Shown in pieces: positions 808-51,952 of a stretch of DNA of 64,000 nt (position 1 is the first letter of the stretch; every line of letters begins with the position of its first letter). The position numbers were made by a program, and so were the translations under genes. The stretch is taken from assembly GCA_964486845.1 (NCBI GenBank), contig CAZAQY010000007.1, positions 1,688 to 65,687 of the forward strand, read 5' to 3'. The stretch is from an uncultured Pirellulaceae bacterium. Its GTDB lineage: Bacteria > Planctomycetota > Planctomycetia > Pirellulales > Pirellulaceae. The notes below the pieces were generated by a model. It made no database searches. It saw nothing but the letters and a program-made list of their open reading frames with translations, and had not been told where the DNA came from.

Positions 808-1842
808 TCAGCCGACTTGGCGGAACGATTCGACGCTGCCCCGGTCCGTCAAGTGGCCGAAGATCCGGTCGAATTCGTCGTGATCGCTGAAATGGATCAC
901 GATCTTGCCGCGTCCGCGGGCGGCCTGCTGAATGTCCACTTTGGCGCCCAAAGCCATCCGCAACTCCTGCTCCAAGGACGCAGTTTGCTCGTTGCGGGTT
1001 CGCTTGTGGAGTGTTCTACTTCTGCCGCCACTGCCGTCGCGATTGCCACTGCCGCTGCCGCCTGCGATATTCAGGACAGGGATATCCGATTCACGGGCTC
1101 TTTCCTGGACCTCGGTTTCAACGGCGCGGACGCTCAGACTTTCCTGCTGGATGCGGTGACACAGCTCGATCTGTTCCGCTTCGTCCCCCAGAGGCAACAG
1201 CGCTCGGGCGTGGCCCGCGGAAATGTCGCCTTTGCGAAGTGCGTCCAAGACTACTTCGGGAAGTTCCAGCAATCGCATCAAGTTGGCGATCGTCGAACGG
1301 TCGATCTTCAGGCGGCGTGCCAAGTCTTCCTGCGAACAGCTGTGTTCCTCCAGGTAGCGTTTGAACGAGAGCGCCTTTTCGATCGGGTTCAGGTCTTTGC
1401 GGTGAAGGTTTTCCACGATGGCCAATTCCGCCACCAGACGATCATCGGCCTCGCGCACTTGAGCCGGGATCTGCGTCCAGCCCGCTTGCATCGCAGCACG
1501 CAGACGGCGTTCGCCGGAGATCAGCTGATAGCGCTGGCCGGCCCGGCGGACCAAGACGGGTTGCAGCAGGTCGTGCTCTTTCAAGCTCTCCGCCAGCGAC
1601 GCAATCTCCGGTTCGGTGAAATCCCGCCGCGGCTGGAACGGATTGCCGTCGATCTGGTCGATCTGCAGCTGCAGGATCCCAGAACCGACAGCCGTCTCCG
1701 GGGACGCCGTGTGCGTGACCTCGTCGCGGGAAAAGTCGGCAGCCGGCGCATCGCTGCTCCCGGTCCCGGCGCCGTCCATTTCTTCCAAAGGCGTGCCCAG
1801 CAATGCCGCCAAGCCTCTACCCAATCGTCGATCCTTGCTCAT
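808..1842 (-). CDS. parB: ParB/Spo0J chromosome partitioning protein
   Basis: MSKDRRLGRGLAALLG start and the ParB box GNPFQPRRDF...LLQPVLVRR...YQLISGERRLRAA. The ORF extends to 1869, but the ATG at 1842 matches the usual ParB N-terminus. Confidence 0.93.
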   Translation of the reverse strand: MSKDRRLGRGLAALLGTPLEEMDGAGTGSSDAPAADFSRDEVTHTASPETAVGSGILQLQIDQIDGNPFQPRRDFTEPEIASLAESLKEHDLLQPVLVRRAGQRYQLISGERRLRAAMQAGWTQIPAQVREADDRLVAELAIVENLHRKDLNPIEKALSFKRYLEEHSCSQEDLARRLKIDRSTIANLMRLLELPEVVLDALRKGDISAGHARALLPLGDEAEQIELCHRIQQESLSVRAVETEVQERARESDIPVLNIAGGSGSGNRDGSGGRSRTLHKRTRNEQTASLEQELRMALGAKVDIQQAARGRGKIVIHFSDHDEFDRIFGHLTDRGSVESFRQVG

Positions 1843-2605
1843 GGTCCAAGACCTCCATGCACAGTTCAATGTAAGCTCGCGTACCTGGCGAGCGAGGCGC
1901 GTAATCCAGAACCGAGAGTCCGTGGCTGGGCGCCTCGGACACCGCCACGTCGCGCGGAATCACCGTGTCGAACACGATCTCGCCGAAGAAATCCCGCACT
2001 TCCGCTTCGACTTCGTGAGTCAGCTCCAATCTGGGATCGTGCATCGTCAGCAAAATGCCGCCGAATTCCAGCCGCCCGAACTGACTCGCCATGACCTTGC
2101 GGATGACGTGAATCATCTGCGTGAGCCCCTCCATCGCGAAGTACTCGCACTGGATGGGCATCAGCACTTCGGTGGAGGCCGCCAGCGCGGCTTGCGTCAA
2201 CTCGCCCAACGACGGCGGACAGTCGATCAACACGAAATCGTAGGCGTTGGTATTGACCGCCAAGTGACGGCCCAAGGTCTGCGCCGTCTGCCGCTTGTCC
2301 TGGGACAATGCCTCGACGTCGCGAAAACTGCGACTGCCCGGCAACAGCTGAAGATTGGGGACCGCCGTCGTGCAGACGGCATCGTGCAGCGGCTGATCCA
2401 GCACCAAGGCGTGACGTTCCACAGGCGCATGATTGAGGCCGCTGGTCGCGTTGCACTGCGGGTCCAGGTCGACCAGCAGCGTACGGCTGCCGGACTTGGC
2501 CAAGGCCACGGCCAAGTTCACTGCGGTGGTCGTCTTGCCGACTCCGCCCTTCTGATTGGCCACACACAGGATCCTTCCCAACAGCTCGTCCTCCCTGACG
2601 AACAA
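1817..2605 (-). CDS. parA: ParA/Soj chromosome partitioning ATPase
   Basis: Deviant Walker A CVANQKGGVGKTTTAVNLA, then LLVDLDPQCNATSG and VLIDCPPSLG. It lies immediately upstream of parB. Confidence 0.95.
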   Translation of the reverse strand: MFVREDELLGRILCVANQKGGVGKTTTAVNLAVALAKSGSRTLLVDLDPQCNATSGLNHAPVERHALVLDQPLHDAVCTTAVPNLQLLPGSRSFRDVEALSQDKRQTAQTLGRHLAVNTNAYDFVLIDCPPSLGELTQAALAASTEVLMPIQCEYFAMEGLTQMIHVIRKVMASQFGRLEFGGILLTMHDPRLELTHEVEAEVRDFFGEIVFDTVIPRDVAVSEAPSHGLSVLDYAPRSPGTRAYIELCMEVLDHEQGSTIG

Positions 2606-2742
2606 GTCCGAGGGGCAAATGCGCCCCCTGCGGACGCGCTCCCCGCTGGGTCGCGGTTAAATGATGCATCGCTCCCAGCCGCGCACACGTGCGGCGGGAT
2701 TGTAACCACGGTTAGCCGAAATCGGGAATGTCATTTCTCGTT

Positions 2743-2758
2743 CGTTCCACGTGAAACG
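2743..2758. promoter_or_regulatory. parS site 1 (CGTTCCACGTGAAACG)
   Basis: 14/16 match to the canonical parS TGTTNCACGTGAAACA. Located in the 245-bp gap upstream of parA. Confidence 0.8.
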
Positions 2759-2778
2759 AACAGTCGCGGGAGATTGCC

Positions 2779-2794
2779 TGTTTCACGTGAAACA
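2779..2794. promoter_or_regulatory. parS site 2 (TGTTTCACGTGAAACA, perfect palindrome)
   Basis: 16/16 match to the canonical parS consensus. Confidence 0.9.
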
Positions 2795-2829
2795 CGCAAT
2801 TCTGCCAATTCCCCGAAACTTCGCAAACC

Positions 2830-2845
2830 CGTTTCACGTGAAACA
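2830..2845. promoter_or_regulatory. parS site 3 (CGTTTCACGTGAAACA)
   Basis: 15/16 match to the parS consensus. Lies 5 nt from the stop of the upstream DUF1015 gene. Confidence 0.85.
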
Positions 2846-2849
2846 GGGG

Positions 2850-4166
2850 CTATCCCAGCGGATTGATGACCAGGCCGCTGAGCAGCTTGGGATAGAAATA
2901 GGTGCTCTTGGCGGGCATGCGCTGCTGGCTCTCGCTGATTTTGCGGACATGCTCGACCGTGGCGGGCATGACCAGCGCAGCCAACGGAAACGGCTGGCCG
3001 GAGACGTCACCGCGATGCAGCCAGTCGACGGCTTCTTCGACCAGGTGAACGTACTCGGCTTTCGGCAACTGTTTCGCGTCCAACAGAGTTTCCATCACCA
3101 AGCGGTGAAGAATGCTGACACCCAGTTGTTGCCAGTCCGGACCATGGCCGGTGGCTACCTCGGCCATCCGCTGGCGTCCAGCGGCGGTGATGCGAGCCAG
3201 AAGCCATTGCTGGTCCGCCGTGGTAAAGAAGCCGATGACGCCTTGTTCCCCTTCGATTTCGATGGATTTCCAGACCGCGTGCGCGGCGTCGGGCCCCTGG
3301 GCGGCGACGTCCGCCTGGAAGCAGTCGCCGAGCTTTTCGATCAACTGGGCGGAGGACAGGGGAGGCAGACCTCGGAACAGCCGATGCGTCGGCAGCACAA
3401 CCATTCCAGGATCGCTCATGCTGACGCACATGCCCAGCACGAAGTTGGCCGGGTGGGTGGCGGGCAGCGTCTGGCCGCCCGACAGGTGATCGCGGTAATT
3501 GCAGGCGGTTTCGTACCGGTGATGGCCGTCGGCGATGAACATCGGTTTGGGTCCCAGCACGGCCGCGACCTCGGCGATGACCTTCACATCGCTGATCGGC
3601 CACATGCGATGGATCACGCCCAGGTGGTCGACGGCTTCGAGCGGTGCCGTGCCCAGGACGGCGTCTTCCAGAATCTCTTGGGCTACGTTTTCCTCGTCCG
3701 GGTACAGGCCGAAGATCTGACTGAGGTTCGCCTTGCAGGCCACGGTCAACTTGAACCGGTCGGCCTTTGCGGCTGCGTGAGTCTCCTCATGGGGGTAGAT
3801 CTTCCCTTCGCCGAACCGCTCTAAGCGGATGCGAGCCATGAAGCCGCGCCGGTTCATCGGCCGTCCCCCGTACTGGAAGGTCTGATGGTAGACGTACAGG
3901 GCAGGGTCCGGTTCCCGCTGCAGGAGTCCTTCGCTACACCAGTTCTTGAGGAACCTGGCCGCGCGGGTGTAGCGGTTGTGGGCGTCGTCGTCACCGGGTT
4001 CATCCCGGTTCAGGATCAGGCGGATGACGTTGGCGGGATGCTTCTTGTACAGCTGGTCCTGCAGCTCGGGGCCGATCACGTCGTAGGGCGGAGCGACAAC
4101 GTCGCTCAGCGCGCCAACGTGCCCCAGATCGTAACGGAGTGCTCGGAAGGCTTGGATTTCGGGCAT
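2850..4166 (-). CDS. DUF1015 family protein
   Basis: N-terminus MPEIQAFRALRYD...VVAPPYDVI...HPANVIRLIL and FIADGHHRYETA are characteristic of DUF1015. Confidence 0.8.
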   Translation of the reverse strand: MPEIQAFRALRYDLGHVGALSDVVAPPYDVIGPELQDQLYKKHPANVIRLILNRDEPGDDDAHNRYTRAARFLKNWCSEGLLQREPDPALYVYHQTFQYGGRPMNRRGFMARIRLERFGEGKIYPHEETHAAAKADRFKLTVACKANLSQIFGLYPDEENVAQEILEDAVLGTAPLEAVDHLGVIHRMWPISDVKVIAEVAAVLGPKPMFIADGHHRYETACNYRDHLSGGQTLPATHPANFVLGMCVSMSDPGMVVLPTHRLFRGLPPLSSAQLIEKLGDCFQADVAAQGPDAAHAVWKSIEIEGEQGVIGFFTTADQQWLLARITAAGRQRMAEVATGHGPDWQQLGVSILHRLVMETLLDAKQLPKAEYVHLVEEAVDWLHRGDVSGQPFPLAALVMPATVEHVRKISESQQRMPAKSTYFYPKLLSGLVINPLG

Positions 4167-4312
4167 GGGATTCCTAAACGTGACTATGCCGGAACAAATC
4201 TGCGGAGTTCCGACAGCGATTCGAACGGCTTTCGGGCAGTTTCTGATGCCGGAACTGCGAGGACTTGTTCCGGCCTACGGGAAAACCCCGAAGGTACAGG
4301 GAAGTCCTGAAT

Positions 4313-5728
4313 CTAGTACCGATAGTGCTCCGGCTTGAACGGGCCCTCCACAGGGACGCCCAAGTACTCGGCCTGGCGTGGAGTGAGCTTCGTGAGCTTC
4401 GCCCCCAAGTGCTCCAAGTGCAGGCGGGCGACTTCCTCATCCAGACGCTTGTCCAGCCGGTAGACTCCCACCTCGTGATTGCCCGTCCAGAGGTCGAGCT
4501 GGGCCAGGATCTGGTTCGTGAAGCTGTTGGACATGACGAAGCTCGGATGGCCCGTGGCGCAGCCCAGATTCACCAGACGGCCTTCGGCCAGCATGTAGAT
4601 CGTATGGCCGTTCGGAAACGTGTAGGCGTCCACCTGCGGCTTGATCTGGGTCCGGCGGATACCGGGATAACGGAGCAAGGCGTCGACCTGAATCTCGTTG
4701 TCGAAGTGGCCGATGTTGCAGATGATCGCCTGGTCCTTCATCTTGGCCATGTGCTCGACCGTGATCACATCACAGCTGCCGGTGGCGGTCACGTAGATGT
4801 CCGCGTAGGGCAGGGCGTCTTCCAGGGTCGTCACTTTGTAGCCGGCCATGAGCGCCTGCAGGGCGCAGATCGGATCGATTTCCGAGATCCACACCTGGGC
4901 TCGCTGTCCCATCAGCGACTCGGCCGATCCCTTGCCCACATCCCCGTAGCCGCAGACCATGGCGACCTTGCCGGCGATCATCACGTCGGTCGCCCGGTTG
5001 ATGCCGTCGATCAGCGAGTGCCGGCAGCCGTAGATGTTGTCAAACTTGCTCTTGGTGACCGAATCGTTGACGTTCATCGCGGGAACCAACAATTCGCCCC
5101 GTTCCAGCATCTGGTACAAACGGCGGACGCCGGTCGTGGTCTCTTCGGACACGCCTTTCCATTGGGTCACCAGCCGGTGGAAAAAACGGGAGTCGCCGGT
5201 CAGGCTCCGCTTCAAGACCTGGTTGACGATGGCCAGTTCCTTGTTGTCGGTGGGCTGCTCGAGCAGGCCGGGATTCTCTTCGGCCTGGTAGCCGCGGTGA
5301 ATGATCAGCGTCGCGTCCCCGCCGTCGTCGACCACCAAGTTCGGGCCGCTGCCATCCGGCCAGGTCATGGCTTTCTTGGTGAAATCCCAGTACTGCTCCA
5401 ACGTCTCTCCCTTGAACGCGAACACCGGCGTGCCGCTGGCGGCAATGGCTGCGGCGGCGTGGTCCTGTGTGGAGAAGATGTTGCACGATGCCCAGCGTAC
5501 GTCGGCCCCCAATTCCTTGAGGGTCTCGATCAGCACGGCCGTCTGAATCGTCATGTGCAGCGAGCCCATGACCCGCGCACCCGCCAGAGGTTTCTGCGGC
5601 CCATACTTCTTGCGCGTGGCCATCAGGCCGGGCATCTCGTGCTCCGCCATTCCAATCTCGCGCCGGCCCAGGTCGGCCAGTCCGATATCCTTGACAACGA
5701 ATTCCGGCTCGGCAGCTACGGCAAGCAT
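4313..5728 (-). CDS. ahcY: Adenosylhomocysteinase (S-adenosyl-L-homocysteine hydrolase)
   Basis: 471 aa with [37 protein letters not shown] (NAD site), NIGHFDNEI and a C-terminal PEHYRY. Confidence 0.97.
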
Positions 5729-5848
5729 CAGTTTGTTCCTGTTAAATCAGCGGAGTTTAGCCGTCATCTTGGCAACGCGATATGATAGGCGTGATTGGCC
5801 GGTTGGGCAACTCCCGGTCCCTGCAAATCAAAGCCGGAGAGCGGGAGA

Positions 5849-6526
5849 CTACCCGCAATCTTGGGATGCGACGGATTCGAAAGCAGCCAGCGCGTTGCGG
5901 ACGAACTGACGCACCCGCTGGCGGTCCTTCCGGCCCGGGCTGGATTCCACGCCGCTGGCCGTATCGACGGCGGCCGCGCGTGTTGCTTCGATGGCGGCGG
6001 CGACATTCTCCGGACGAAGACCTCCCGCCAGAATGACCGGAAGGGCAATCGGCATGGCGTGCAATCCCCGAACGAGGGGCCATTCCGCAATCTGCCCCGT
6101 ACCGCCGTAGCTGCCGGACTGGCAAGCGTCGATCAGCACCGCTGCCAAGCGGAATCCCGCTGCTTCGCAAGCGAACAGGTACTTTGTCACCTGTTCCAGG
6201 TCCGGCCGCGTGCAACGGAAAGCTTTGATCAGCCGCCGCTCGGCCAACTGCCTCGCCATCTGGGGCGATTCGTCGCCGTGCAACTGGACAACGTCGAGTC
6301 CCACTTCATCGCAAGTCGCAAGTACTTCGTCGGCCGCCGCGTTGACGAACACGCCGACCTTGGTCACCGCCGGCGGGATTCCCCGCGCGATCGCCTGGGC
6401 CACATCGCGTGCTACGTAACGCGGACTGGGCGGGTAGAAATTGAGGCCGATCGCGTCGGCGCCGGCAACCACGCACGCTTCTGCGTCATCAGGGCTGGTG
6501 ACGCCGCAAATCTTGACACGAAACAA
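5849..6526 (-). CDS. trpF: Phosphoribosylanthranilate isomerase
   Basis: MFRVKICGVTSPDDA...GADAIGLNFYPPSPRYV...VQLHGDE...LAGGLRPENV, TrpF hallmarks. Confidence 0.9.
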   Translation of the reverse strand: MFRVKICGVTSPDDAEACVVAGADAIGLNFYPPSPRYVARDVAQAIARGIPPAVTKVGVFVNAAADEVLATCDEVGLDVVQLHGDESPQMARQLAERRLIKAFRCTRPDLEQVTKYLFACEAAGFRLAAVLIDACQSGSYGGTGQIAEWPLVRGLHAMPIALPVILAGGLRPENVAAAIEATRAAAVDTASGVESSPGRKDRQRVRQFVRNALAAFESVASQDCG

Positions 6527-6630
6527 AGCTGAACTCCGGTCCGCTGGTAACGATTTGTTGGATTCTCGGGGTTGTAGCGCCGATGTTAGTTGTGATGACG
6601 TATGGACCCAGCTTCAAGGAATACGGCAGT

Positions 6631-6933
6631 ATGAACCGCACACTGTTGACCATCGCGATCCTGGCGTTACTTTCCACCGCCCCCGGATGCTTACAGCGAA
6701 ATACCTGTCCGCCCGGGGGCCAATGCGGCTGCGGCGGCATCGGCGGCGGCGGGGTGTTGGGGGCGTTGATAGGCCCCGTCTCGCAGGAGATCCACGCCTC
6801 GCAGGACTGGCGGCACCAAAGGCCGGAGTTGGGCCCGGCGGGGCCGCCCAGCGGCACCGTCGGCTATCCCTACTACACGCTGCGTGGCCCACGAGACTTC
6901 CTCGTGGACAATCCCCCCAGCATCGGCAATTAG
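6631..6933 (+). CDS. Small hypothetical lipoprotein (Gly/Cys-rich, C-terminal YPYYTLRGPRDFL motif)
   Basis: MNRTLLTIAILALLSTAPGC lipobox-like signal, then CPPGGQCGCGGIGGGG. The ATG at 6631 is preferred over the upstream alternative start at 6583. Confidence 0.5.
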   Translation: MNRTLLTIAILALLSTAPGCLQRNTCPPGGQCGCGGIGGGGVLGALIGPVSQEIHASQDWRHQRPELGPAGPPSGTVGYPYYTLRGPRDFLVDNPPSIGN

Positions 6934-7041: not shown

Positions 7042-8331
7042 TCAATCTCGAAAACGCCCCACGGCCAGCGCGATATTCTGGCCGCCAAAACCGAAGCTGT
7101 TGTTGAGTGCGATGTCGCACTTGGCCTCACGAGGCTCGTTGGGCACGTAGTCCAAATCACAATCCGGATCGGGGTTTTCGTAATTGATGGTGGGCGGCAG
7201 GACGCGGTCACGAATCGCCATCAGGCAGATGATCATCTCGGTCACGCCGGCGGCTGCAATCAGATGGCCCATCATGCTCTTGGTGCTGGAGACCGGCGTC
7301 TTTTTCGCCCGGTCCCCAAACACGACCTTGCAGGCCACGGTTTCGACGCGATCGTTCACTTGGGTGCTGGTGCCGTGGGCGTTGACATAATCCACGTCGT
7401 CCGGGGAAATACCGGCGTCCTGGATGGCCATCCGCATGCACGCGATCGCTCCGCGCCCGTCCGGATGAATGTCCGTGATCCGATAGGCGTCGGCAGTGGA
7501 GCCGAAGCCGAGGACCTCTCCGTAGATTTGCGCCCCACGCCGCTTGGCGAATTCCAGTTCCTCCAGAACAATCATGGCCGAACCTTCGCCCAGCACAAAT
7601 CCGTCGCGGAGACGATCGAACGGCCGTGACGCTTTCTCCGGTTCGTCATTTCTGGTGGACAAGGCCGTAAGCAGGTTGAACCCCGTGACACCGAACGGGT
7701 GAATCATGCTGTGCGTGCCGCCCGCGATCATCGCATCCGCATCCCCGCGGCGGATGATCTCCGTGGCTTCGCCGATCGCTTGACTGCTGGCCGCACACGC
7801 AGTCAGACAGTTCACGTTCGGACCCTGGGCGTTGAACAGGCTGGCGATATGGCCGGAAGGCACGCTTGGCTCTTGCTCCAACTCGGACATCGGCGAAAGC
7901 GTCTCCAGGCCCGATTTGATGAACCGGGACAAATCCAGGTTCGGACCATCCAGCGCCGCGATCACCATCTGACTGAACCGCAGGAAATCCTGGTTGCCCT
8001 CCCCGCTGCCCAGGTAGACGCCCAGGCGGCGGGGATCGATTCCCGCGTCCAGGACGCCGGAGGCTCCGACCGCCTGTTTCGCCGCTCCAACCGCAAATCG
8101 GGTATGCCGCCCACAGGACTTCCACTTCTCCGGGTCTTCCCCGGCCAGCGACACATCCCAGTTCTTGACTTCCGCCGAGATGCGAGAGGGGAAACTGCTG
8201 GCGTCGAAGATGGTTGTGTAGCCGACTCCAGAGCGGCATTCCTTGAGGCCGGTCCAGACGGTCTCCACGTCGTGCCCCATGGGGTTGACCATGCCCATGC
8301 CAGTGATGACCACGCGCCTTCTCATGCCCAA
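7042..8331 (-). CDS. Beta-ketoacyl-ACP synthase, KAS II (FabF-like)
   Basis: VVITGMGMVNPMG start. Cys-His-His triad contexts LTACAASSQAIG, NAHGTSTQVND and KSMMGHLIAAAG. Ends with FGFGGQN. Confidence 0.9.
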   Translation of the reverse strand: MGMRRRVVITGMGMVNPMGHDVETVWTGLKECRSGVGYTTIFDASSFPSRISAEVKNWDVSLAGEDPEKWKSCGRHTRFAVGAAKQAVGASGVLDAGIDPRRLGVYLGSGEGNQDFLRFSQMVIAALDGPNLDLSRFIKSGLETLSPMSELEQEPSVPSGHIASLFNAQGPNVNCLTACAASSQAIGEATEIIRRGDADAMIAGGTHSMIHPFGVTGFNLLTALSTRNDEPEKASRPFDRLRDGFVLGEGSAMIVLEELEFAKRRGAQIYGEVLGFGSTADAYRITDIHPDGRGAIACMRMAIQDAGISPDDVDYVNAHGTSTQVNDRVETVACKVVFGDRAKKTPVSSTKSMMGHLIAAAGVTEMIICLMAIRDRVLPPTINYENPDPDCDLDYVPNEPREAKCDIALNNSFGFGGQNIALAVGRFRD

Positions 8332-8341
8332 GATCGCCCCC

Positions 8342-8899
8342 TCAACCGGCCACCAGACTCGATGAATCCTCGTCGAACAAAGCGTTCTCCGCGCTGGCCA
8401 AATGCGGAGGCAACTCCAGCGGACTGCCGTCCGCCTTCCGACCGACCTCGTACATTCTATAACGTCGCAGGACGCTCAACAACATCTTCGCATCAATCAA
8501 CTCGACGCCTGCGAAGCGGTCATCCAGCAGCGCGAAGACGATCTGCAAGGTCGCCAGTAGCCGGTCTCCGATGTGAACCGTGGCATCGATGATGGCTCCG
8601 TTGGCACGCACGTTGAGGATGTCCACGGTGTACGTCAAGGTGTCGCCGGGCGTTGCGTACCCGTGAAATTCGGCTTTGGCGACCTTGGCCAAAATCACAC
8701 GCTCCCGGAACCCCACGTGTTCGCCAACCAACAAACCGCCCGTCTGGGCGACCCCTTCAATAATCAGCGACGCGGGCATGATCGCCATGGCACTCGTGTA
8801 TTCCGCGATTTGCTCCTCCGCAAAGCTGATGTTTTTGATGGCCACCGCCCGGCGGCCGCTCTCAAATGCGACGAACCTGTCAATCCAGAACCAGCGCAT
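8342..8899 (-). CDS. Hotdog-fold FabA/FabZ-like protein lacking the catalytic His
   Basis: MRWFWIDRFVAFESG...IAEYTSAMAIMPASLIIEGVAQTGG. This has the FabZ topology, but the HFP His is replaced by Tyr. Start placed at M27 of the ORF (ATG 8899). Confidence 0.72.
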   Translation of the reverse strand: MRWFWIDRFVAFESGRRAVAIKNISFAEEQIAEYTSAMAIMPASLIIEGVAQTGGLLVGEHVGFRERVILAKVAKAEFHGYATPGDTLTYTVDILNVRANGAIIDATVHIGDRLLATLQIVFALLDDRFAGVELIDAKMLLSVLRRYRMYEVGRKADGSPLELPPHLASAENALFDEDSSSLVAG

Positions 8900-9027
8900 G
8901 ATCGACCTGTGCTCTCCGCCGAAGGCAGGTAGCAGGAGTGTGAACTTGGCGGCATCACCGAAGTGCGGTGCAGACACGTATCGAGTCGCGATCGGAAGTC
9001 GTTTCCGCCCGGACTCGCTTCCAGCCG

Positions 9028-9417
9028 TTATTCAGCCCCGACCTTCGACTCGACGTAACGGCACAAGTCGTTGACCGTCAACAGGTTGCCGAATTCCTGC
9101 ACGACCGGGTTCGCCTCGAACCGGGCCAAATCGGCGAACGGCATACGGCTCTTCAGCATTTCCAGTCCAGCAGGCGTGACTTTGCCGTCTTGGACGTACT
9201 CGGCATTGGTCAACACATCTTCCGGGAACAATTCGGAACGCGGAATCTCGATGCCAAACGCCTTCTCCAGGCGGAAGACAATGTCCAGGAAGTCAATCGA
9301 CTCCGCCCCCAAATCGCCGACCATGGTCGCCGCGGGCGTCACCTCTTCCTCGTCGACTCCCAATGCTTCCACCAAGGCCTCTTTGACCTTCTCAAATACT
9401 ACGGCTTTCGTCGTCAT
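9028..9417 (-). CDS. Acyl carrier protein with a roughly 50-aa C-terminal extension
   Basis: MTTKAVVFEKVKEALVEALGVDEEEV...GDLGAESIDFLDIVFRLEKAFGIEIP, an ACP helix II motif with the phosphopantetheine Ser. It is 129 aa versus about 80 aa for a typical ACP. Confidence 0.85.
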   Translation of the reverse strand: MTTKAVVFEKVKEALVEALGVDEEEVTPAATMVGDLGAESIDFLDIVFRLEKAFGIEIPRSELFPEDVLTNAEYVQDGKVTPAGLEMLKSRMPFADLARFEANPVVQEFGNLLTVNDLCRYVESKVGAE

Positions 9418-9478
9418 ACCAAATCGCTCCCTATAGGAATGGATACTGTACGTCTTCCTGCGGTCAGTCGGAGCGTCC

Positions 9479-9985
9479 TCACGCCCGCTCCGCTGACGGT
9501 CGTTCCGTGGCGGCATCCGGCCGGTAAAGCTGAGCAAACCGCTGTTTCATCTCCGCTCGTGCATGCGAGTCCCAGGCTCGGAGATGGGGTTCCCGGTCCC
9601 CGATGTTGAACCGCTCCAACACCAGCCGCCCCGTGACGGCCACGGTTTCACCAACCCAACCCTCCGCCTTGATCGTGGTCAAACGATCGTCTTCTGTAAC
9701 CAGTTCGGCCCGTAAGGTCAATGTCTCGCCGGGCCGGACAAACCCTGCGAACTTGAGGTTTCTCGCTTCCTTCAGAATCACCATCGAATGGCGGAAATCC
9801 TCGGACAAGCAGATCAACCAAGTCCCCGCCTGGAGAATCGCCTCCAACATCAAGACGCCGGGCATCACCGGGAACCGAGGAAAGTGATCGTGCAGGTACT
9901 CCTCGGCCAAAGACAGGGCCTTGACGGCCGTGATGCTGGCCCCCGGTTGGACGTCGATGATTCGGTCGATTAAGGTGAACCGCAT
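9479..9985 (-). CDS. 3-hydroxyacyl-ACP dehydratase, FabZ-like (catalytic His and Glu present)
   Basis: MRFTLIDRIIDVQPG...EEYLHDHFPRFPVMPGVLMLEAILQAG. Start placed at ATG 9985 within ORF 9479-10258. Confidence 0.85.
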   Translation of the reverse strand: MRFTLIDRIIDVQPGASITAVKALSLAEEYLHDHFPRFPVMPGVLMLEAILQAGTWLICLSEDFRHSMVILKEARNLKFAGFVRPGETLTLRAELVTEDDRLTTIKAEGWVGETVAVTGRLVLERFNIGDREPHLRAWDSHARAEMKQRFAQLYRPDAATERPSAERA

Positions 9986-10106
9986 GGGACCGCCCGTGAG
10001 TCTGGCCGGGATGCCCTGATTGTGTCCGGAAACGACAAAGGGCGTAAGTATACTTGCCGCAGCCAGCATAGACAACCGTGAATCGAGCTTGGTAGGATAA
10101 CTCGTC

Positions 10107-10951
10107 ATGCGACGAGGGATTTCTGTATCTCCGGGGGTGGCGGTTGGTACGGCGTTCTGTATCCACGAGATCTTCGTCAACCCCGCTAGAATGCACGTGG
10201 GCGAGGCAGACACTGCCGCCGAGTTGGCGAGGTACGAAGAGGCTCGCGAACAAGCCAAACACGCTTTATCGACCTTAAAATCCGCAATCGGCGATCATGC
10301 CGGACGTGACGCAGCAGCAATTTTTGCCGCTCAAGGTGCCGTCCTTCGCGACTTGGCTCTTACAGACAAGGTTCGCGCATGGATTTTGGATGAGCAGATC
10401 TCGGCTCAGGCCGCCTTGCAGAGACTGCTGGAACTCTACAAGACCGTATTCTCCCGCGTCGAGGATGCTTATGTTCCCATCGGGCTCATGGTCGAAGTGC
10501 CCGCCGCCGCAATTACCATCCGTTCCATGCTGCCCAAGTCGACTTTGTGTCCATCGGGTCGAATGATCTGGTTCAGTACCTGATGGCAGCGGATCGCGAT
10601 AATCCGAAGGTGGGCCACCTCTGCCAGCCGCTGGCACTGGCCGTGATTCAGGTGCTGACCGATGTCGTTCACAAGTGCAACGCCGTAGGCCGAACGGTGA
10701 CGGCCTGCGGCGAAATGGCCGGGCAGTCGCGGGCCTTTGTGTTGCTGTTGGCGATGGGCGTGCGGAGTTTCAGCATGAGCCCGGCCTTCATTCCCTTGAT
10801 CAAGGAGTTCGCCAAACACCTGTCGATCGCCGATGCGGTGAAGATCCTGCAGCATGCGCTGACCTTGCACACCATCGGCAAGGTCACGCGCTATCTCACC
10901 GAACAAATGAAGCGGCTGTCCCCGGACTTCGACCGGTTCGACTTTGCCTGA
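10107..10951 (+). pseudogene. ptsI: Remnant of PEP-protein phosphotransferase (PTS enzyme I) with a roughly 300-aa internal deletion and a frameshift
   Basis: Residues 1-122 match the EI N-terminus (GISVSPGVAVG...). They join directly (near 10473) to VPIGLMVEVPAAA, which is about residue 425 of E. coli EI. The frame changes near 10538 into VDFVSIGSNDLVQY...CGEMAG...SMSP. The phospho-His domain is absent. Confidence 0.75.
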
Positions 10952-45765: not shown

Positions 45766-46830
45766 ATGCGTTTCCGATTCCTCGACCGAATCACACAATT
45801 AGAACCCGGCAAACAAATCGAGGCGGTCAAGCACCTCTTCGCCACGGAGGGCTACCTCGAGGACCATTTCCCGCGGTTTCCGATCATGCCCGGCGTGTTG
45901 ATGCTGGAAGCCATGTACCAAGCCGGTCTGTGGCTAGTTCGCAGGACAGAAGATTTTGCCCATTCGATCGTGGAACTGAAGGAGGCGCGGAACGTCAAGT
46001 TCAGCGGGTTCGTCAAGCCGGGGCAAGACCTGGTGGTGACGGCCGAGATCAAGAAGCAGGACGGCGACTTTACGACGCTGATGACTCAGGGGACCGTCGA
46101 CGGCAAAGTCGTGGCCAGCGCCAGGCTGGTTGTCGAGGCATTTCAGCTGCCGGATCGGTATCCGCAATTTGCAGCCAGCAACAATTATCTGATGAGGAAG
46201 GTGCGGCGGCAATTTGGACGCGTGATGTCGGGCGTTCCCGACCCTCCACCTAACGCGGGGTTTTCGTCGCGTTGGCTATGGATCGATCGTTTCGTCGAAT
46301 TTGTTCGCGGGAATCGAGCCGTGGCCATCAAGAATGTGAGTCTGACGGAAGATCCCATCAGTGAGTATTTGCCCGGCATGTCCGTGCTGCCTTGCTCGTT
46401 GGTGGTCGAAGGGCTCGCCTGGACCGGTGGGATCCTGGCAAACGACCAGTGTGGTTTCCGGGAACGGACGGTCTTGGCGAAGGTCAAGAAGGCCGTGTTT
46501 CACCGCCCACCGCTGGCGGGCGACCAAGTCAGATACACCGCGGTGATCGAAGGGCTCGAACCCGAAGGTGCGTTCATTCGCGGTACCAGCCATATCGGTG
46601 ATGAACTCCAGGCCGAAGTGGACATCTTTCTTGCGCACTTGGGAGACCGCTTCGAGGAAGTCGAAGGCGATCTGATCGATCCTGCCGACATGCTGGCGAC
46701 GCTCCGGCTGTGGGGCATGTACGAGGTGGGGCGCACCGCTTCCGGGGACTGCCTCGACGTCGCGGAAAAGCTGTTGGAAGGCGAGCGCCAGGCCCAGGCA
46801 GAAGAAGGGGAAGCCGGCCCACTCACTTGA
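45766..46830 (+). CDS. Fused double-hotdog protein (FabZ-like half plus His-less hotdog half)
   Basis: The N-half MRFRFLDRI...LEDHFPRFPIMPGVLMLEAMYQAG is paralogous to 9479-9985. The C-half RWLWIDRFVEFVRGNRAVAIKNVS...SEYLPGMSVLPCSLVVEGLAWTGG is paralogous to 8342-8899. I judge both at roughly half identical by eye. Confidence 0.8.
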   Translation: MRFRFLDRITQLEPGKQIEAVKHLFATEGYLEDHFPRFPIMPGVLMLEAMYQAGLWLVRRTEDFAHSIVELKEARNVKFSGFVKPGQDLVVTAEIKKQDGDFTTLMTQGTVDGKVVASARLVVEAFQLPDRYPQFAASNNYLMRKVRRQFGRVMSGVPDPPPNAGFSSRWLWIDRFVEFVRGNRAVAIKNVSLTEDPISEYLPGMSVLPCSLVVEGLAWTGGILANDQCGFRERTVLAKVKKAVFHRPPLAGDQVRYTAVIEGLEPEGAFIRGTSHIGDELQAEVDIFLAHLGDRFEEVEGDLIDPADMLATLRLWGMYEVGRTASGDCLDVAEKLLEGERQAQAEEGEAGPLT

Positions 46831-49436: not shown

Positions 49437-50093
49437 TCAAGTTCTGATTCGGCTGCCAAGTCGCCGGCGGCGAGCCTCGGCATGGCAAGCGCGAATGCGG
49501 CTCTCCACCTCCGCGAGCAGTTGGTCGTCGTTCAGGGTGGCGGCGAAGTCGGGCGAGATGGGCTCGCCGATGCAGACACGGACGACGGACGGACGCGGGA
49601 GCAAGGCGTGCCTTGGCCAAGCATCAAATGCGCCGTCCAGCGCCACGGGCAGCAGCGGAACGCGGCTCCGGCGGGCAAGCACCAGGAATCCGGGTTTCAC
49701 GGGCGAGATATTCCCGTCCCGACTCCTGGTGCCTTCCGGGAAGATCAACACCATTTCGCCACTTTTCAGGCGTTTGAGCGTCTCTTTCAGCCCTCGAATG
49801 CCGCCCCCTTCGCGGTCGATCGGAATGGCGTTCACGAAACCAATCAGCCAGCCGAAGGGGCCGAAGCGGAACAGGGTGTCCCGCGCCAAGTAGTGGCAGT
49901 GGCGGCGGAATCCAAGACCGACGAGAATCGGATCGAGGTAGCTCTGGTGATTCGAGCAGATCAGGACGCCGCCCTCGGACGGCACATGCTGGTGCCCCAG
50001 GCAGCGGACCTGAAACATGCCGACGCCCACCAGCCGGCACAAAGCTCGGGCCACACAGTAGCCAGACCGCCGGAATCGAGATGCTTCCGCCAT
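49437..50093 (-). CDS. plsC: 1-acyl-sn-glycerol-3-phosphate acyltransferase
   Basis: Acyltransferase motifs CSNHQSYLDPIL and IFPEGTRSRDG. Confidence 0.88.
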   Translation of the reverse strand: MAEASRFRRSGYCVARALCRLVGVGMFQVRCLGHQHVPSEGGVLICSNHQSYLDPILVGLGFRRHCHYLARDTLFRFGPFGWLIGFVNAIPIDREGGGIRGLKETLKRLKSGEMVLIFPEGTRSRDGNISPVKPGFLVLARRSRVPLLPVALDGAFDAWPRHALLPRPSVVRVCIGEPISPDFAATLNDDQLLAEVESRIRACHAEARRRRLGSRIRT

Positions 50094-50156
50094 ACGCAGA
50101 AGGTGCTTTGGATTGGGGAATTGTTTGCTGGCTGATCATCACGCGGAGCGTGATGG

Positions 50157-50822
50157 CTACTTTGAGGATACCTGGGGCCGCCGCGAGTTCACGATCTCGA
50201 CCAACCGGTCGACGACTTGTTCGATCGACATCCCGTCCGTGACGACCTCGACCGCATCCTGGGCGCGGACCAACGGCCCTACCGCCCGGCGGGAGTCGCG
50301 CTCGTCCCGCTGAAGCTGCTGAGCCAGCACGTCGTCAAACGACGGCGTCTCGCCCCGTTGCTGCAGGTCGTGGACCCGGCGACGCGCACGCTCTTCCGGT
50401 GTAGCCGTAAGAAAGATCTTACATTCGGCGTGCGGAAAGACCACCGTGCCCTGATCGCGGCCCTCGGTCACGATGTGGCCCCTGCGGCCGATCTGCTGTT
50501 GCAGTTTGACCAAGTGCTCGCGGACCTGAGGGTTGTCTGCCGCGTAGCGGATATGTGCCGTCACTTGACTGGTCCGAATTGGGTCCGTCACGTCCTCGCC
50601 GTCCAATAGGACGCGCTGGTCCTGGAAGCGAATTTCCAGCTGCTTGGCCAACTCGGCCCAGCCCGTCGCGTCCTGGCACGGCAAACCGCGGCGCAGGGCG
50701 GCCAGCGTCACCGCCCGATACATCGCCCCCGTGTCCAGGAACCGGAACCTCAGTTTCGCCGCCAGCGACTTGGCGACCGTGCTCTTGCCCGCGCCGGCGG
50801 GGCCATCAATCGTGACGATCAT
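50157..50822 (-). CDS. cmk: Cytidylate kinase
   Basis: MIVTIDGPAGAGKSTVAKSLA...LDTGAMYRA...IVTEGRDQGTVVFP. Start at ATG 50822, which overlaps the upstream gene stop in an ATGA. The longer ORF reaching 51125 is rejected. Confidence 0.93.
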   Translation of the reverse strand: MIVTIDGPAGAGKSTVAKSLAAKLRFRFLDTGAMYRAVTLAALRRGLPCQDATGWAELAKQLEIRFQDQRVLLDGEDVTDPIRTSQVTAHIRYAADNPQVREHLVKLQQQIGRRGHIVTEGRDQGTVVFPHAECKIFLTATPEERARRRVHDLQQRGETPSFDDVLAQQLQRDERDSRRAVGPLVRAQDAVEVVTDGMSIEQVVDRLVEIVNSRRPQVSSK

Positions 50823-51952
50823 CGCGGTCCCGCTTGCGGTTGCGGTTTGCAGTAAGACAGGGCCAACAAGGCATACGCGGTCACTAGGTTCGGATCGCCC
50901 TCCATCCAGCGATCGGCCTCGTTCACCCACGAACCATCCGGCAACTGGCGACTCGCCAATTCCGCCCGCAACTCCGCCCGCCAATCGTGCTTGACGCCCT
51001 GATGATCGACAAGCACGTCTTGTTTCATCGCATCGAGCGTTTTGGCAAAAGTGTGATAGTAGTAGTACAGCCCCTGGCCTCCCATCCCCGGGTTGGACTT
51101 CAGGTCGTAGTGCATTTTGATCCACTTCACGGCTGCCTTGACGCGCGGGTCATCGTCGCCTACGCCGGCGTAAATCATGCTTTTCAGGCCGGCGTAGGTC
51201 ATCGATCCGTAGCTCCGCAGCCCGCCGCCGGGCGTGGTTCCCGCCATACTGGAACCGCCGGCAGCCGGAGTGTAGTAGAAGCCGCCGTCGGGGTTCTTGG
51301 CCGCAAACGGCGTCGTATTGTGTTCCGTCTCGAGGTTCTGGCAGCGGGAAACGAAAGTCAAAGCCCGCTTGACGGCCTCGTCGTTCACATCGGTTCCCAT
51401 CGCCTGCAACGCATCCATAAAGAATTGCGTATTCGATAGGTCAGGTCGCTTGTGTTTCCCGTAGCCCGCACCACCGTAGGCAGGGTCGGCAGGGTCCTTG
51501 TCCTCGCCTTCGTCCCATTGCAGCCCCCGGATATATGCATCCGCTTTATTCAGTTTTTCCGTGTACCGCCCATCCTTGTTGGCCTCGGTCAAACACAAAA
51601 TGGCGACCGAAGTCTCGTAATTGGCGTACAGCGAGCCGGTTCGAAAGACGCCTCCATCCGATCGAACGAATTGCTCCACGTACGCCAGACTGTTCGCGAC
51701 CAACGGATCGCTTGGCGTGCGACCGTGCCGCATCAGGGCCGTCGCCACCAGCGCGGTCACGGCCGGCCCGGCCTGACTGCTGAACGACCCGTCCTCAGCC
51801 TGCCCCTTCGTCGCCAGGAAGCCGATCGCTCGACCCACCATCTGCTCGTAATCTGGTGCGCCGGGGCGAACCGTTTCCGCACCCGTGAGATCGCTTCCCG
51901 CACCGATAGCAATTGTCACGCCAAAACAGAAGATCCAAAAACGCTCGTGCAT
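50819..51952 (-). CDS. Secreted prenyltransferase/squalene-oxidase-repeat (terpenoid-cyclase alpha-alpha toroid) protein
   Basis: Signal peptide. Repeated DG(S/G)F/W units (AEDGSFSS, RSDGGVFRT, NPDGGFYYT, QLPDGSWVN) and PAYGGAGYG. Confidence 0.65.
   Translation of the reverse strand: MHERFWIFCFGVTIAIGAGSDLTGAETVRPGAPDYEQMVGRAIGFLATKGQAEDGSFSSQAGPAVTALVATALMRHGRTPSDPLVANSLAYVEQFVRSDGGVFRTGSLYANYETSVAILCLTEANKDGRYTEKLNKADAYIRGLQWDEGEDKDPADPAYGGAGYGKHKRPDLSNTQFFMDALQAMGTDVNDEAVKRALTFVSRCQNLETEHNTTPFAAKNPDGGFYYTPAAGGSSMAGTTPGGGLRSYGSMTYAGLKSMIYAGVGDDDPRVKAAVKWIKMHYDLKSNPGMGGQGLYYYYHTFAKTLDAMKQDVLVDHQGVKHDWRAELRAELASRQLPDGSWVNEADRWMEGDPNLVTAYALLALSYCKPQPQAGPR

What the first reader, a model, noticed from the sequence alone, without database searches (positions are those of the whole stretch)
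7042..9985. Compact accessory type-II-FAS-like operon: catalytic hotdog, long ACP, His-less hotdog, KAS II
Four tightly packed co-directional genes encode four products. The first is a FabZ-like dehydratase with an intact His/Glu pair (DHFPRFPVMPGVLMLEA). The second is a 129-aa ACP with a ~50-aa C-terminal extension. The third is a second hotdog protein in which the catalytic His is replaced (AEYTSAMAIMPASLIIEG). The fourth is a KAS II with a Cys-His-His triad. The window shows no KR, ER, AT or thioesterase. The His+/His- hotdog pairing resembles heterodimeric dehydratases such as mycobacterial HadAB. A dedicated ACP implies a specialised lipid or polyketide-like product rather than housekeeping fatty-acid synthesis. 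I cannot assign the product.
Basis: partly seen in the sequence, partly recalled or inferred. Interest (0 to 1): 0.65.

Follow-up and report, generated by a model that had tools for sequence, protein, structure and literature searches.

The report
Second fatty-acid elongation module in Pirellulales
The four genes are real and form one expressed operon, conserved across hundreds of Pirellulales (planctomycete) genomes, that most likely lengthens fatty-acid chains on its own unusual carrier protein using a two-part dehydratase; its lipid product is unknown.

Summary
Four co-directional genes lie on the minus strand: hotdog HD1 (9985-9479, His and Glu intact), a 129-aa ACP (9417-9028), hotdog HD2 (8899-8342, catalytic His replaced by Tyr, Glu kept) and a FabF-type KAS II (8331-7042).

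Two corrections apply. The ACP's extra ~50 aa is an internal insertion before helix IV, not a C-terminal extension. About 37% of HD2 orthologues keep the His.

At least 555 species-level genomes encode an HD2 relative. All named taxa among the 80 loci examined are Planctomycetota, mostly Pirellulales, and 48 of 58 loci with enough flank carry all four genes. Nine loci add a FabG-like reductase.

Activated-sludge metatranscriptomes assemble one RNA contig across all four genes.

The same window holds a conserved, transcribed fusion of an HD1-like and an HD2-like half (45766-46830). The fusion argues that HD1 and HD2 pair as a heterodimer with one complete active site.

Best reading: a second FAS-II elongation module with a private ACP, analogous to AcpXL or mycobacterial FAS-II. 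The product is unknown. I could not test whether the window's genome also has housekeeping copies. R. baltica, of the same family, has a canonical fabD, an 81-aa acpP and a KAS annotated fabB.

The parts
9479..9985 (-). HD1: FabZ/FabA-type hotdog dehydratase subunit, 168 aa. Catalytic His (DHFP) and Glu (MLEA) are present. It has a C-terminal helix tail of about 40 aa.
   Evidence: His is present in 56/56 orthologues and Glu in 55/56. Orthologues carry precomputed PF22818 ApeI-like hits.
9028..9417 (-). Long ACP, 129 aa. It has a canonical four-helix core with the Ser40 attachment site, plus a conserved ~50-aa insertion (about residues 64-113) between helix III and helix IV.
   Evidence: PP-binding at residues 9-64. 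It falls below all ACP equivalog cut-offs. AF2 pLDDT is 89.5; 75-80-aa ACPs align end to end at TMt 0.8-0.85, and no solved ACP shows the insert. The family is highly conserved, with median 76% identity.
8342..8899 (-). HD2: FabZ/FabA-type hotdog subunit, 185 aa. Tyr occupies the catalytic His position, the Glu is invariant, and there is a conserved ~60-aa C-terminal tail.
   Evidence: Glu is present in 81/81. The His column holds Tyr 46, His 30, other 5.
7042..8331 (-). FabF-type beta-ketoacyl-ACP synthase II, 429 aa, with a Cys-His-His triad and a ~12-aa insertion near residues 120-135.
   Evidence: Median identity to orthologues is 73%.
10012..10075 (-). Likely promoter and 5' end of the operon transcript.
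   Evidence: RNA contigs end at 10012-10058, with adapter sequence directly after 10012 and 10030. A sigma-70-like match (TTGTCT-17-TATACT) lies at 10075..10047 on the minus strand; this is a weak consensus hit, 2 found against 0.9 expected.
45766..46830 (+). Paralogous fused double hotdog, 354 aa. The N half is HD1-like (His34/Glu48) and the C half is HD2-like (Tyr201/Glu215, with the same C-terminal tail). It is a stand-alone gene.

Best explanation
This is a second, lineage-wide type II fatty-acid-synthase elongation module of Pirellulales with its own carrier protein. I infer the following cycle.
1. The KAS II condenses malonyl units onto an acyl chain held on the long ACP.
2. A FabG-type reductase reduces the 3-keto group. 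That reductase is encoded inside the cassette in some lineages and is borrowed from the general pathway in the window's organism.
3. An HD1:HD2 heterodimer dehydrates the 3-hydroxyacyl-ACP at a single complete active site, built from the His of HD1 and the Glu of HD2. The mirror site (Tyr of HD2 plus Glu of HD1) is degenerate.
4. Malonyl loading (FabD) and, probably, enoyl reduction (FabI) come from the housekeeping system.

The ACP insertion and the tails of the two hotdogs probably provide private docking surfaces, or a longer acyl pocket, that keep this acyl pool apart from the AcpP pool. The most likely output is a special, probably longer-chain, acyl or 3-hydroxyacyl pool for a core envelope lipid, by analogy with AcpXL/FabZXL/FabFXL and with AcpM/KasA/HadAB.

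Shown here: gene content, catalytic residues, conservation, co-transcription, and the existence of the fusion.
Inferred: heterodimer formation, borrowing of FabD/FabG/FabI, and the nature of the product.
For: Domains and catalytic residues.

Conservation. At least 555 species-level genomes encode an HD2 relative. Every named taxon among the best 80 loci is Planctomycetota, mostly Pirellulales.
- 48 of 58 loci with enough flank have HD1-ACP-HD2-KAS in that order.
- The ACP is always next to HD2.
- Nine loci have a FabG-like SDR inserted between HD1 and the ACP, giving KR + DH + ACP + KS in one operon.

Heterodimer.
- The window's fused HD1-like/HD2-like paralogue is 49% and 50% identical to its respective counterparts, against 24-31% for the cross comparisons.
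- It belongs to a conserved family: 301 hits, nearly all listed full-length members about 345-355 aa.
- His34/Glu48 and Tyr201/Glu215 are invariant in the 48 aligned members.
- AF2 gives pLDDT 90.5 and pTM 0.90 as one double hotdog, and each half matches FabZ at TMt about 0.85.
- Non-His HD2 genes have HD1 upstream in 45 of 45 loci. The four loci without HD1 all have His-bearing HD2 (Fisher p = 0.0095).

Expression. Three RNA-seq runs each assemble one contig over all four genes. A fourth covers them with two overlapping contigs. Word depth is 12-25, against mostly 0-6 beyond the contig ends.

Not canonical. HD1, HD2 and the ACP fall below the FabZ and AcpP equivalog cut-offs, and the KAS falls just below the fabF cut-off.

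R. baltica has fabD RB314, an 81-aa acpP RB318 and the KAS RB320 (annotated fabB) (PMC2754498). It has five KAS paralogues (PMC2649909).
Against: - No whole genome carrying the cassette could be scanned, so co-existence with canonical acpP, fabF and fabZ is not shown for the window's organism. I also did not confirm that R. baltica carries the cassette. RB8123, annotated 'fabZ' and 177 aa long, with a probably miscalled ORF where the ACP would lie, is only suggestive.
- Very strong conservation (ACP 76%, KAS 73% median identity) and the lack of neighbouring tailoring or transfer genes would also fit an essential housekeeping role.
- There is no biochemical evidence for heterodimer formation.
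- No enoyl reductase is in the cassette, so the chain may not be fully reduced.
- The product is unknown. No acyltransferase that would use the long ACP is linked to the cassette.
Confidence: 0.55

Rival explanations
1. The cassette is, wholly or in part, the housekeeping FAS-II of Pirellulales. In particular, HD1/HD2 may be the only FabZ-type dehydratase of the cell, serving bulk fatty-acid synthesis, and the long ACP is simply this order's version of a general ACP.
For: - HD2 relatives are encoded in at least 555 species-level genomes.
- ACP and KAS identity is high (76% and 73% median).
- The KAS scores within 7 bits of the fabF equivalog cut-off.
- The FabG-ACP-...-FabF order in nine loci mirrors the canonical fabG-acpP-fabF order.
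- RNA depth is higher than in the neighbours.
- In R. baltica, the only gene annotated fabZ that turned up in the held supplementary text of the transcriptome paper (which was cut when stored) is 177 aa, the length of HD2.
Against: - R. baltica has a canonical fabD, an 81-aa acpP and a KAS annotated fabB.
- The cassette lacks FabD, FabH and FabI, and in most lineages FabG.
- The ACP and both hotdogs fail the equivalog cut-offs.
- The window's genome carries a further dehydratase set, the fused paralogue.
Confidence: 0.2
2. It is an enoyl-reductase-less, highly reducing type II PKS-like module of the APE or ishigamide type. KS, KR and a heterodimeric DH iterate on a private ACP and leave conjugated or multiple double bonds, giving a polyene or polyunsaturated acyl product.
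For: - No ER is present in any version of the cassette, while KR + DH + ACP + KS occur together in nine loci.
- HD1 orthologues and the fused family carry precomputed Pfam ApeI-like hits.
- ApeI/ApeP is a heterodimeric dehydratase with a single active site (PMC8041823).
Against: - There is a single KS and no chain-length-factor partner.
- The KS is a close FabF relative: PDB hit E = 1.8e-114, and the KAS II subfamily cut-off is passed.
- There is no starter-unit ligase, thioesterase, methyltransferase, or lipid-transfer or export gene nearby.
- NCBIfam polyketide and cispentacin models score far below their cut-offs.
Confidence: 0.15
3. HD1 and HD2 do not pair. HD1 is an ordinary homo-oligomeric dehydratase. 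The Tyr-state HD2 has acquired a different role on acyl-ACP, for example thioesterase, isomerase, or a non-catalytic ACP chaperone or chain-length gate.
For: - Tyr at the His position is invariant in the 48 aligned fused proteins and predominant in split HD2, which suggests selection for a function rather than decay.
- HD2 has its own conserved ~60-aa tail and is the gene invariably linked to the ACP.
- Two database proteins read as ACP-HD2 fusions.
Against: - The fused HD1-like/HD2-like family, and its confident single-body model, argue for pairing.
- The Glu that would complete HD1's active site is invariant in HD2, 81 of 81.
- His-less HD2 never occurs without an adjacent HD1.
Confidence: 0.1

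Closest known systems
Rhizobial acpXL cluster (AcpXL, FabZXL, FabF1XL/FabF2XL), which makes the very-long-chain fatty acid of lipid A (own knowledge). The specialised ACP RPA2022, PDB 2kw2/3lmo, appeared among the fold matches; that it is the AcpXL orthologue is also from memory.
   Same: A private ACP sits with its own FabZ-type dehydratase and FabF-type synthase in one cluster. There is no FabD, FabG or FabI, so the module must borrow them. It elongates chains apart from the AcpP pool.
   Different: - This cluster has two hotdog genes forming a probable heterodimer, and one KAS rather than two.
- No LpxXL-type acyltransferase or dehydrogenase is linked.
- The ACP has a 50-aa insertion not seen in AcpXL-type ACPs.
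- NCBIfam models PRK06508 (ACP), PRK06501 and PRK09116 (KAS) score far below their cut-offs. Whether those models represent the acpXL-cluster proteins is my assumption.
Mycobacterial FAS-II: AcpM, KasA/KasB, HadAB/HadBC (own knowledge)
   Same: An enlarged ACP, a dedicated KAS, and a heterodimeric dehydratase in which only one subunit carries the catalytic residues. It is an elongation system working on top of another synthase.
   Different: - HadA/B/C are MaoC-type (R)-hydratase hotdogs. HD1 and HD2 are FabZ/FabA-type; their MaoC Pfam score is 16 bits against a cut-off of 27.
- AcpM is enlarged by a C-terminal tail, whereas this ACP has an internal insertion.
- AcpM and KasA NCBIfam models score far below their cut-offs.
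ApeI/ApeP dehydratase of aryl-polyene type II PKS clusters (PMC8041823)
   Same: A heterodimer of two FabZ-like hotdogs with a single active site. One protomer can occur fused to another protein. HD1 orthologues carry Pfam ApeI-like hits.
   Different: There is no KS/CLF pair, no aryl-starter ligase and no APE lipid-transfer or export genes. The KAS is FabF-like. The cassette is confined to a four- or five-gene operon.
Canonical FabZ homodimer/hexamer, including the anammox amxFabZ-amxACP pair (PMC10139942)
   Same: The fold and catalytic chemistry are the same (His from one subunit, Glu from the other; own knowledge of FabZ structures). amxFabZ likewise works only with its own ACP. The best PDB sequence and fold matches are FabZ and amxFabZ.
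   Different: - There are two diverged subunits, one without His in the window's lineage.
- Both carry C-terminal tails absent from FabZ.
- Scores are below the FabZ equivalog cut-offs.
- None of the ladderane-cluster genes (radical SAM, phytoene-desaturase-like) are linked to the cassette in the window.

Membership tests
Housekeeping FabZ (NCBIfam NF000582 / TIGR01750 equivalogs) | Whole-protein score above the curated equivalog cut-off | tested here: not met
   HD1 scores 92.1 against 113 and 89 against 155. HD2 scores 68.4 against 113 and 67.7 against 155.
Housekeeping FabZ | Catalytic His and Glu both present in every subunit | tested here: not met
   HD1 has both. HD2 has Tyr at the His column and keeps the Glu.
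Housekeeping AcpP (TIGR00517 and related equivalogs) | Score above cut-off; a four-helix protein of about 75-80 aa | tested here: not met
   Score 54.8 against 70.45, with only residues 6-61 matching. The protein is 129 aa with a ~50-aa insertion.
FabF / KAS II | Cys-His-His triad and a score above the family cut-off | tested here: inconclusive
   The triad is present. The PRK07314 subfamily scores 476 against 387, a pass. The TIGR03150 equivalog scores 486.6 against 493.75, just below the cut-off. The protein is a KAS II by kind; orthology to housekeeping FabF is not established.
Housekeeping FAS-II as a whole | These are the only fabZ/acpP/fabF copies in the genome | not testable with these tools
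   No whole genome was accessible. Indirect evidence: R. baltica has canonical fabD RB314, acpP RB318 (81 aa) and KAS RB320, and the window holds a third hotdog gene.
Aryl-polyene (APE) type II PKS | Heterodimeric ApeI/ApeP-type dehydratase with a single active site | tested here: inconclusive
   Sequence logic and the fused paralogue support a heterodimer with one complete site. Pfam ApeI-like hits are precomputed for orthologues. No protein-level test was done.
Aryl-polyene (APE) type II PKS | KS/CLF pair, aryl-starter ligase, and lipid-transfer and export genes in the cluster | tested here: not met
   There is only one KS, which is FabF-like. The neighbours are ptsI, trpF, DUF1015 and parAB.
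Mycobacterial HadAB/HadBC | MaoC-type (R)-specific hydratase hotdog subunits | tested here: not met
   The Pfam MaoC_dehydratas score is 16.2 against a cut-off of 27, and the best family is FabA-like. This is an analogy only.
acpXL very-long-chain fatty-acid cluster | AcpXL-type ACP and FabFXL-type synthases, with lpxXL linked | tested here: not met
   PRK06508 scores 50.7 against 83, PRK06501 343.8 against 629, and PRK09116 298.5 against 470. Assigning these models to the acpXL cluster is my assumption. No acyltransferase is adjacent in the window or in the loci whose neighbours I inspected.
Cispentacin Amc type II PKS-like system | AmcB, AmcE and AmcF equivalog scores | tested here: not met
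   Scores are 22.9 against 80, 41 against 140 (HD1), 29.7 against 140 (HD2) and 214 against 325.

The most novel reading that the evidence does not exclude
Pirellulales run two parallel type II fatty-acid synthases. The second is insulated by a new class of ACP, with a ~50-aa insertion that no solved ACP has, and by a FabZ-type dehydratase caught in transition from homodimer to obligate heterodimer. Within one order, HD2 retains His in some lineages, has Tyr in others, and exists as a fused double hotdog in a third form. On this reading the module makes a lineage-defining envelope lipid chain, for example the long-chain 3-hydroxy acids reported for planctomycete lipid A (own knowledge, not tested here).
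Probability: 0.35. Interest if true: 0.65.

Novelty: new variant of a known kind. Interest (0 to 1): 0.5.

Why it matters
Planctomycete envelope lipids are poorly understood, and I found no experimental work on this cassette in the literature I searched.

A near-universal, expressed second elongation module with a private ACP would be a concrete handle on a lineage-specific lipid.

The His/Tyr/fused series of HD2 offers a natural experiment in how homodimeric hotdog enzymes turn into single-site heterodimers and then into double-hotdog domains of the kind seen in megasynthases.

The ACP insertion would define a new structural subclass of carrier protein. It may show how type II systems keep acyl pools separate.

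Tried and rejected
- Anammox ladderane clusters. I recalled kuste2802-2805 as a possible equivalent. The papers show those genes are an ACP synthase, a radical SAM enzyme, a FabF and a non-canonical FabB, so they are not this cassette.
- Canonical acpP or fabZ near the cassette. tblastn with E. coli AcpP and FabZ against the window and 84 loci found only the cassette genes, the fused paralogue and one unrelated FabZ-like gene in L009.
- Housekeeping test.
- Literature searches for planctomycete fabZ/acpP/fabF yielded only the R. baltica transcriptome paper and the ladderane papers.
- Taxonomy of distant long-ACP relatives through cluster look-ups gave only one named hit, Thermoguttaceae.
- Extending the window's contig by looking up end genes failed; no exact product was on record.
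- Several long 'ACP fusion' proteins in the representative library are probably gene-calling artefacts. Only the two ACP-FabA-like proteins and one Acyl_transf_3-ACP protein look like real fusions, and each is a single sequence.
- The short 'joints' at 7102/7369 in the RNA contigs are 22-nt matches of contigs that are otherwise unlike the window. They are not splicing.
Full report
**What is there.**
On the minus strand of the window lie four co-directional genes, separated by 61, 128 and 10 nt.
- HD1: 9985-9479, 168 aa.
- ACP: 9417-9028, 129 aa.
- HD2: 8899-8342, 185 aa.
- KAS: 8331-7042, 429 aa.

Pfam and NCBIfam confirm two FabA/FabZ-type hotdogs, a phosphopantetheine-binding ACP and a KAS II.
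- HD1 carries the FabZ His and Glu (DHFPRFPVMPGVLMLEA).
- HD2 has Tyr where the His should be, keeps the Glu, and has no nearby His that could substitute.
- The KAS matches the PDB chain deposited as 3-oxoacyl-ACP synthase 2 (5sxo) at E = 1.8e-114, with the Cys, His, His motifs aligned.

GC content matches the rest of the window. The other genes I scanned in the window include no reductase, malonyl transferase or thioesterase.

**Where it comes from and how widespread it is.**
The window matches an uncultured Pirellulaceae MAG at about 96% (L005). It is found in activated-sludge, aquatic and biogas metagenomes.

A scan of one genome per species found at least 555 genomes encoding an HD2 relative. 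Every named taxon among the best 80 loci is Planctomycetota, mostly Pirellulales: Pirellulaceae, Thermoguttaceae, Blastopirellula, Anatilimnocola, Mariniblastus, Bremerella and others.

Across 80 non-redundant loci:
- The ACP is always adjacent to HD2.
- 48 of the 58 loci with enough flank have the full HD1-ACP-HD2-KAS order.
- Six lack the KAS downstream and four lack HD1 upstream.
- A divergently oriented ptsI lies upstream in 38 of 59.

In nine loci a FabG-like short-chain dehydrogenase sits between HD1 and the ACP. One operon then encodes KR, DH, ACP and KS.

Median identity to the window proteins is 53% for HD1, 76% for the ACP, 52% for HD2 and 73% for the KAS. No lipid-transfer or tailoring gene was seen next to the cassette in the window or in the loci whose neighbours I inspected.

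**Expression.**
Four activated-sludge metatranscriptomes hold the whole cassette. In three, a single assembled RNA contig runs from about 6100-6560 to 10019-10058. In the fourth, two overlapping contigs cover it.

Word depth is 12-25 over the cassette. Beyond the contig ends it is mostly 0-6, over the ptsI remnant and the start of the giant gene on one side and trpF on the other. Sequencing adapter follows directly after 10012 and 10030, which marks fragment ends about 30-45 nt upstream of the HD1 start. A weak sigma-70-like match lies at 10075-10047 on the same strand.

Contig depth is a poor measure of expression and contigs have no direction. What this shows is co-transcription and expression in situ, not a level.

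**The two hotdogs most likely form one heterodimeric enzyme.**
At 45766-46830 (+) the same window encodes one 354-aa protein.
- Its N half is 49% identical to HD1 (24% to HD2).
- Its C half is 50% identical to HD2 (31% to HD1).

Independent DNA and RNA assemblies reproduce it without a single difference.

It belongs to a conserved family: 301 database proteins at E ≤ 1e-10, nearly all listed full-length members about 345-355 aa. In the two long-contig examples I inspected the gene stands alone among unrelated neighbours.

Among 48 aligned members the invariant residues include His34 and Glu48 in the N half, and Tyr201 (the His-equivalent) and Glu215 in the C half.

AlphaFold2 models it as one compact double hotdog (pLDDT 90.5, pTM 0.90). 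Each half superposes on FabZ at a target-normalised TM-score (TMt) of about 0.85.

In FabZ the active site is built from the His of one subunit and the Glu of the other (established knowledge of FabZ structures). An HD1:HD2 pair would therefore have one complete site (HD1 His plus HD2 Glu) and one degenerate site.

This fits the conservation pattern.
- HD1 His is present in 56 of 56 orthologues.
- HD1 Glu is present in 55 of 56.
- HD2 Glu is present in 81 of 81.

**His loss is lineage-specific.**
In the 81 HD2 sequences the His column holds Tyr 46 times, His 30 times and another residue 5 times.
- All nine FabG-containing loci have His.
- So does Blastopirellula marina.
- So do all four loci that lack HD1.

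Among loci with enough upstream sequence, every non-His HD2 (45 of 45) has HD1 next to it. His-bearing HD2 occurs with HD1 (18 loci) or without it (4 loci); Fisher p = 0.0095.

I read this as a dehydratase that was originally self-sufficient. It became dependent on a diverged partner in part of the order, and a fused version arose as a paralogue. The order of these events is inferred, not shown.

**The carrier protein.**
The extra length is not a C-terminal extension. AlphaFold2 (pLDDT 89.5) places the elements as follows.
- Helix I at 4-19.
- Helix II at 40-54, starting at the attachment Ser40.
- Short helix III elements at 60-69.
- A structured insert: a hairpin plus three short helices, ending near residue 113.
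- A final helix at 115-126 (TVNDLCRYVESK), which I take to correspond to helix IV of ordinary ACPs.

Ordinary ACPs of 75-80 aa align to the model from end to end (126 alignment columns, TMt 0.85 for 1x3o). None of the solved ACPs that matched the model (74-101 aa) is long enough to hold such an insert.

The family is very conserved. The top 120 hits are 82-95% identical, and 72 of 129 positions are invariant in the 34 sequences I aligned. It is also large: about 111 representatives at 50% clustering score E ≤ 1e-30. More distant members keep the insert motif (LFP...DGK.T..G......P...).

Two database proteins read as ACP-HD2 fusions, and one as a membrane Acyl_transf_3-ACP fusion. Each is a single sequence, so these are leads only.

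**Housekeeping or accessory?**
The indirect evidence points to a second system.
- HD1, HD2 and the ACP fall well below the curated FabZ and AcpP equivalog cut-offs. The KAS is just below the fabF cut-off but passes the KAS II subfamily.
- The cassette lacks FabD, FabH and FabI, and usually FabG.
- The window's genome has yet another dehydratase set, the fused paralogue.
- Rhodopirellula baltica, of the same family, has a canonical fabD (RB314), an 81-aa acpP (RB318) and a KAS (RB320, annotated fabB) (PMC2754498). It has five KAS paralogues in all (PMC2649909).
- R. baltica also has a gene annotated fabZ of 177 aa (RB8123). A 142-aa basic 'hypothetical' ORF overlaps the spot where the ACP gene would be. 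This looks like the cassette, but I did not verify it.

It remains possible that these hotdogs are the only FabZ-type dehydratases in Pirellulales. I give the housekeeping reading 0.2.

**Mechanism proposed.**
The module runs elongation cycles on its private ACP.
1. The KAS II condenses malonyl units.
2. A FabG-type reductase reduces the keto group. It is encoded in the operon in some lineages and borrowed in the window's organism.
3. HD1:HD2 dehydrates.
4. FabD, and probably FabI, are shared with the general pathway.

The ACP insert and the hotdog tails are candidates for private docking surfaces or a deeper acyl pocket.

By composition the nearest functional analogues are the rhizobial acpXL cluster and mycobacterial FAS-II (own knowledge). 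Both elongate ordinary chains into special long ones. I therefore favour a special, probably longer, acyl or 3-hydroxyacyl pool for a core lipid.

Anaerobic-type unsaturated fatty-acid synthesis seems less likely. R. baltica carries a delta-9 desaturase gene, and from my own knowledge Pirellulales fatty acids are dominated by 18:1 omega-9. An ER-less polyene product cannot be excluded (0.15).

**Comparison and novelty.**
The system is not a member of the canonical FabZ or AcpP equivalogs, the APE clusters, HadAB, the acpXL cluster or the cispentacin system. Each defining feature I could test was not met or was inconclusive (see the membership table).

It works like those private-ACP elongation modules and like ApeI/ApeP single-site heterodimers (PMC8041823). 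I found no paper describing this cassette.

I rate it a new variant of a known kind. It is of moderate interest for three reasons: the breadth of its conservation, the unprecedented ACP insertion, and the visible homodimer-to-heterodimer-to-fusion series.

Noticed in passing
window 10107-10951 (+), junction at 10470/10471: ptsI (PTS Enzyme I) is broken. Relative to the 96%-identical MAG contig L005, the window lacks 918 bp from the middle of the gene, leaving an N-domain ORF and a C-terminal piece in different frames. Independent DNA assemblies from three studies are contiguous across the junction, so the deletion is real in this population. Intact ptsI (577-629 aa) lies divergently upstream of the cassette in most relatives.
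   Followed up: yes
window 10973-37489 (-): A single uninterrupted ORF of 8838 aa with high third-position GC (0.83) abuts the ptsI remnant. It is a giant protein gene and was not analysed.
   Followed up: no
L038, L043, L045, L066, L070, L072, L073, L077, L078 (between HD1 and the ACP): A FabG-like short-chain dehydrogenase of about 250 aa is inserted in the cassette in nine loci, two of them labelled Thermoguttaceae. In all nine loci HD2 keeps the catalytic His.
   Followed up: partly
L009 32-2309: About 5 kb from the cassette, beyond ptsI, lie a phytoene-desaturase-like gene, a different FabZ-like gene (HYPDFPLVPG) and a FabI-like enoyl reductase in a row. This recalls the desaturase-containing fatty-acid clusters of anammox bacteria and Desulfotalea.
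   Followed up: no
L065 1906-6259: Next to the cassette are a KAS paralogue without the active-site Cys (ASANLA) and a fusion of an ACP with an 8-amino-7-oxononanoate-synthase/serine-palmitoyltransferase-like enzyme. This may be a sphingolipid-like or related pathway.
   Followed up: no
P0443, P0374, P0404 (database proteins, no window coordinates): Single examples of the long ACP fused to a membrane Acyl_transf_3 acyltransferase (539 aa) and to an HD2-like hotdog (300 and 284 aa). They could be real fusions or gene-calling artefacts.
   Followed up: partly
window 6583-6933 (+): A small ORF (116 aa) convergent on the KAS gene, with a signal-peptide-like start, a possible lipobox Cys and a Gly/Cys-rich stretch. 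It has no Pfam match. Small unannotated ORFs occupy the same position in L001, L003 and L004.
   Followed up: no
window 808-6526 (-): Downstream of the cassette lie trpF, an S-adenosylhomocysteine hydrolase, DUF1015, parA and parB. The trpF-DUF1015-parA-parB order is shared with L003 and L004. The hydrolase gene is not present at that position in those two loci.
   Followed up: partly
window 49437-51125 (-): A PlsC-type acyltransferase lies directly beside cytidylate kinase. It is the only other lipid-related gene seen in the window besides the fused hotdog.
   Followed up: no
window 7081-7102 and 7369-7392: RNA contigs that are otherwise unlike the window match two 22-nt stretches inside the KAS gene and were reported as 266-267-nt 'skips'. 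These are short matches, presumably to conserved KAS sequence from other organisms, not joints in this transcript.
   Followed up: partly
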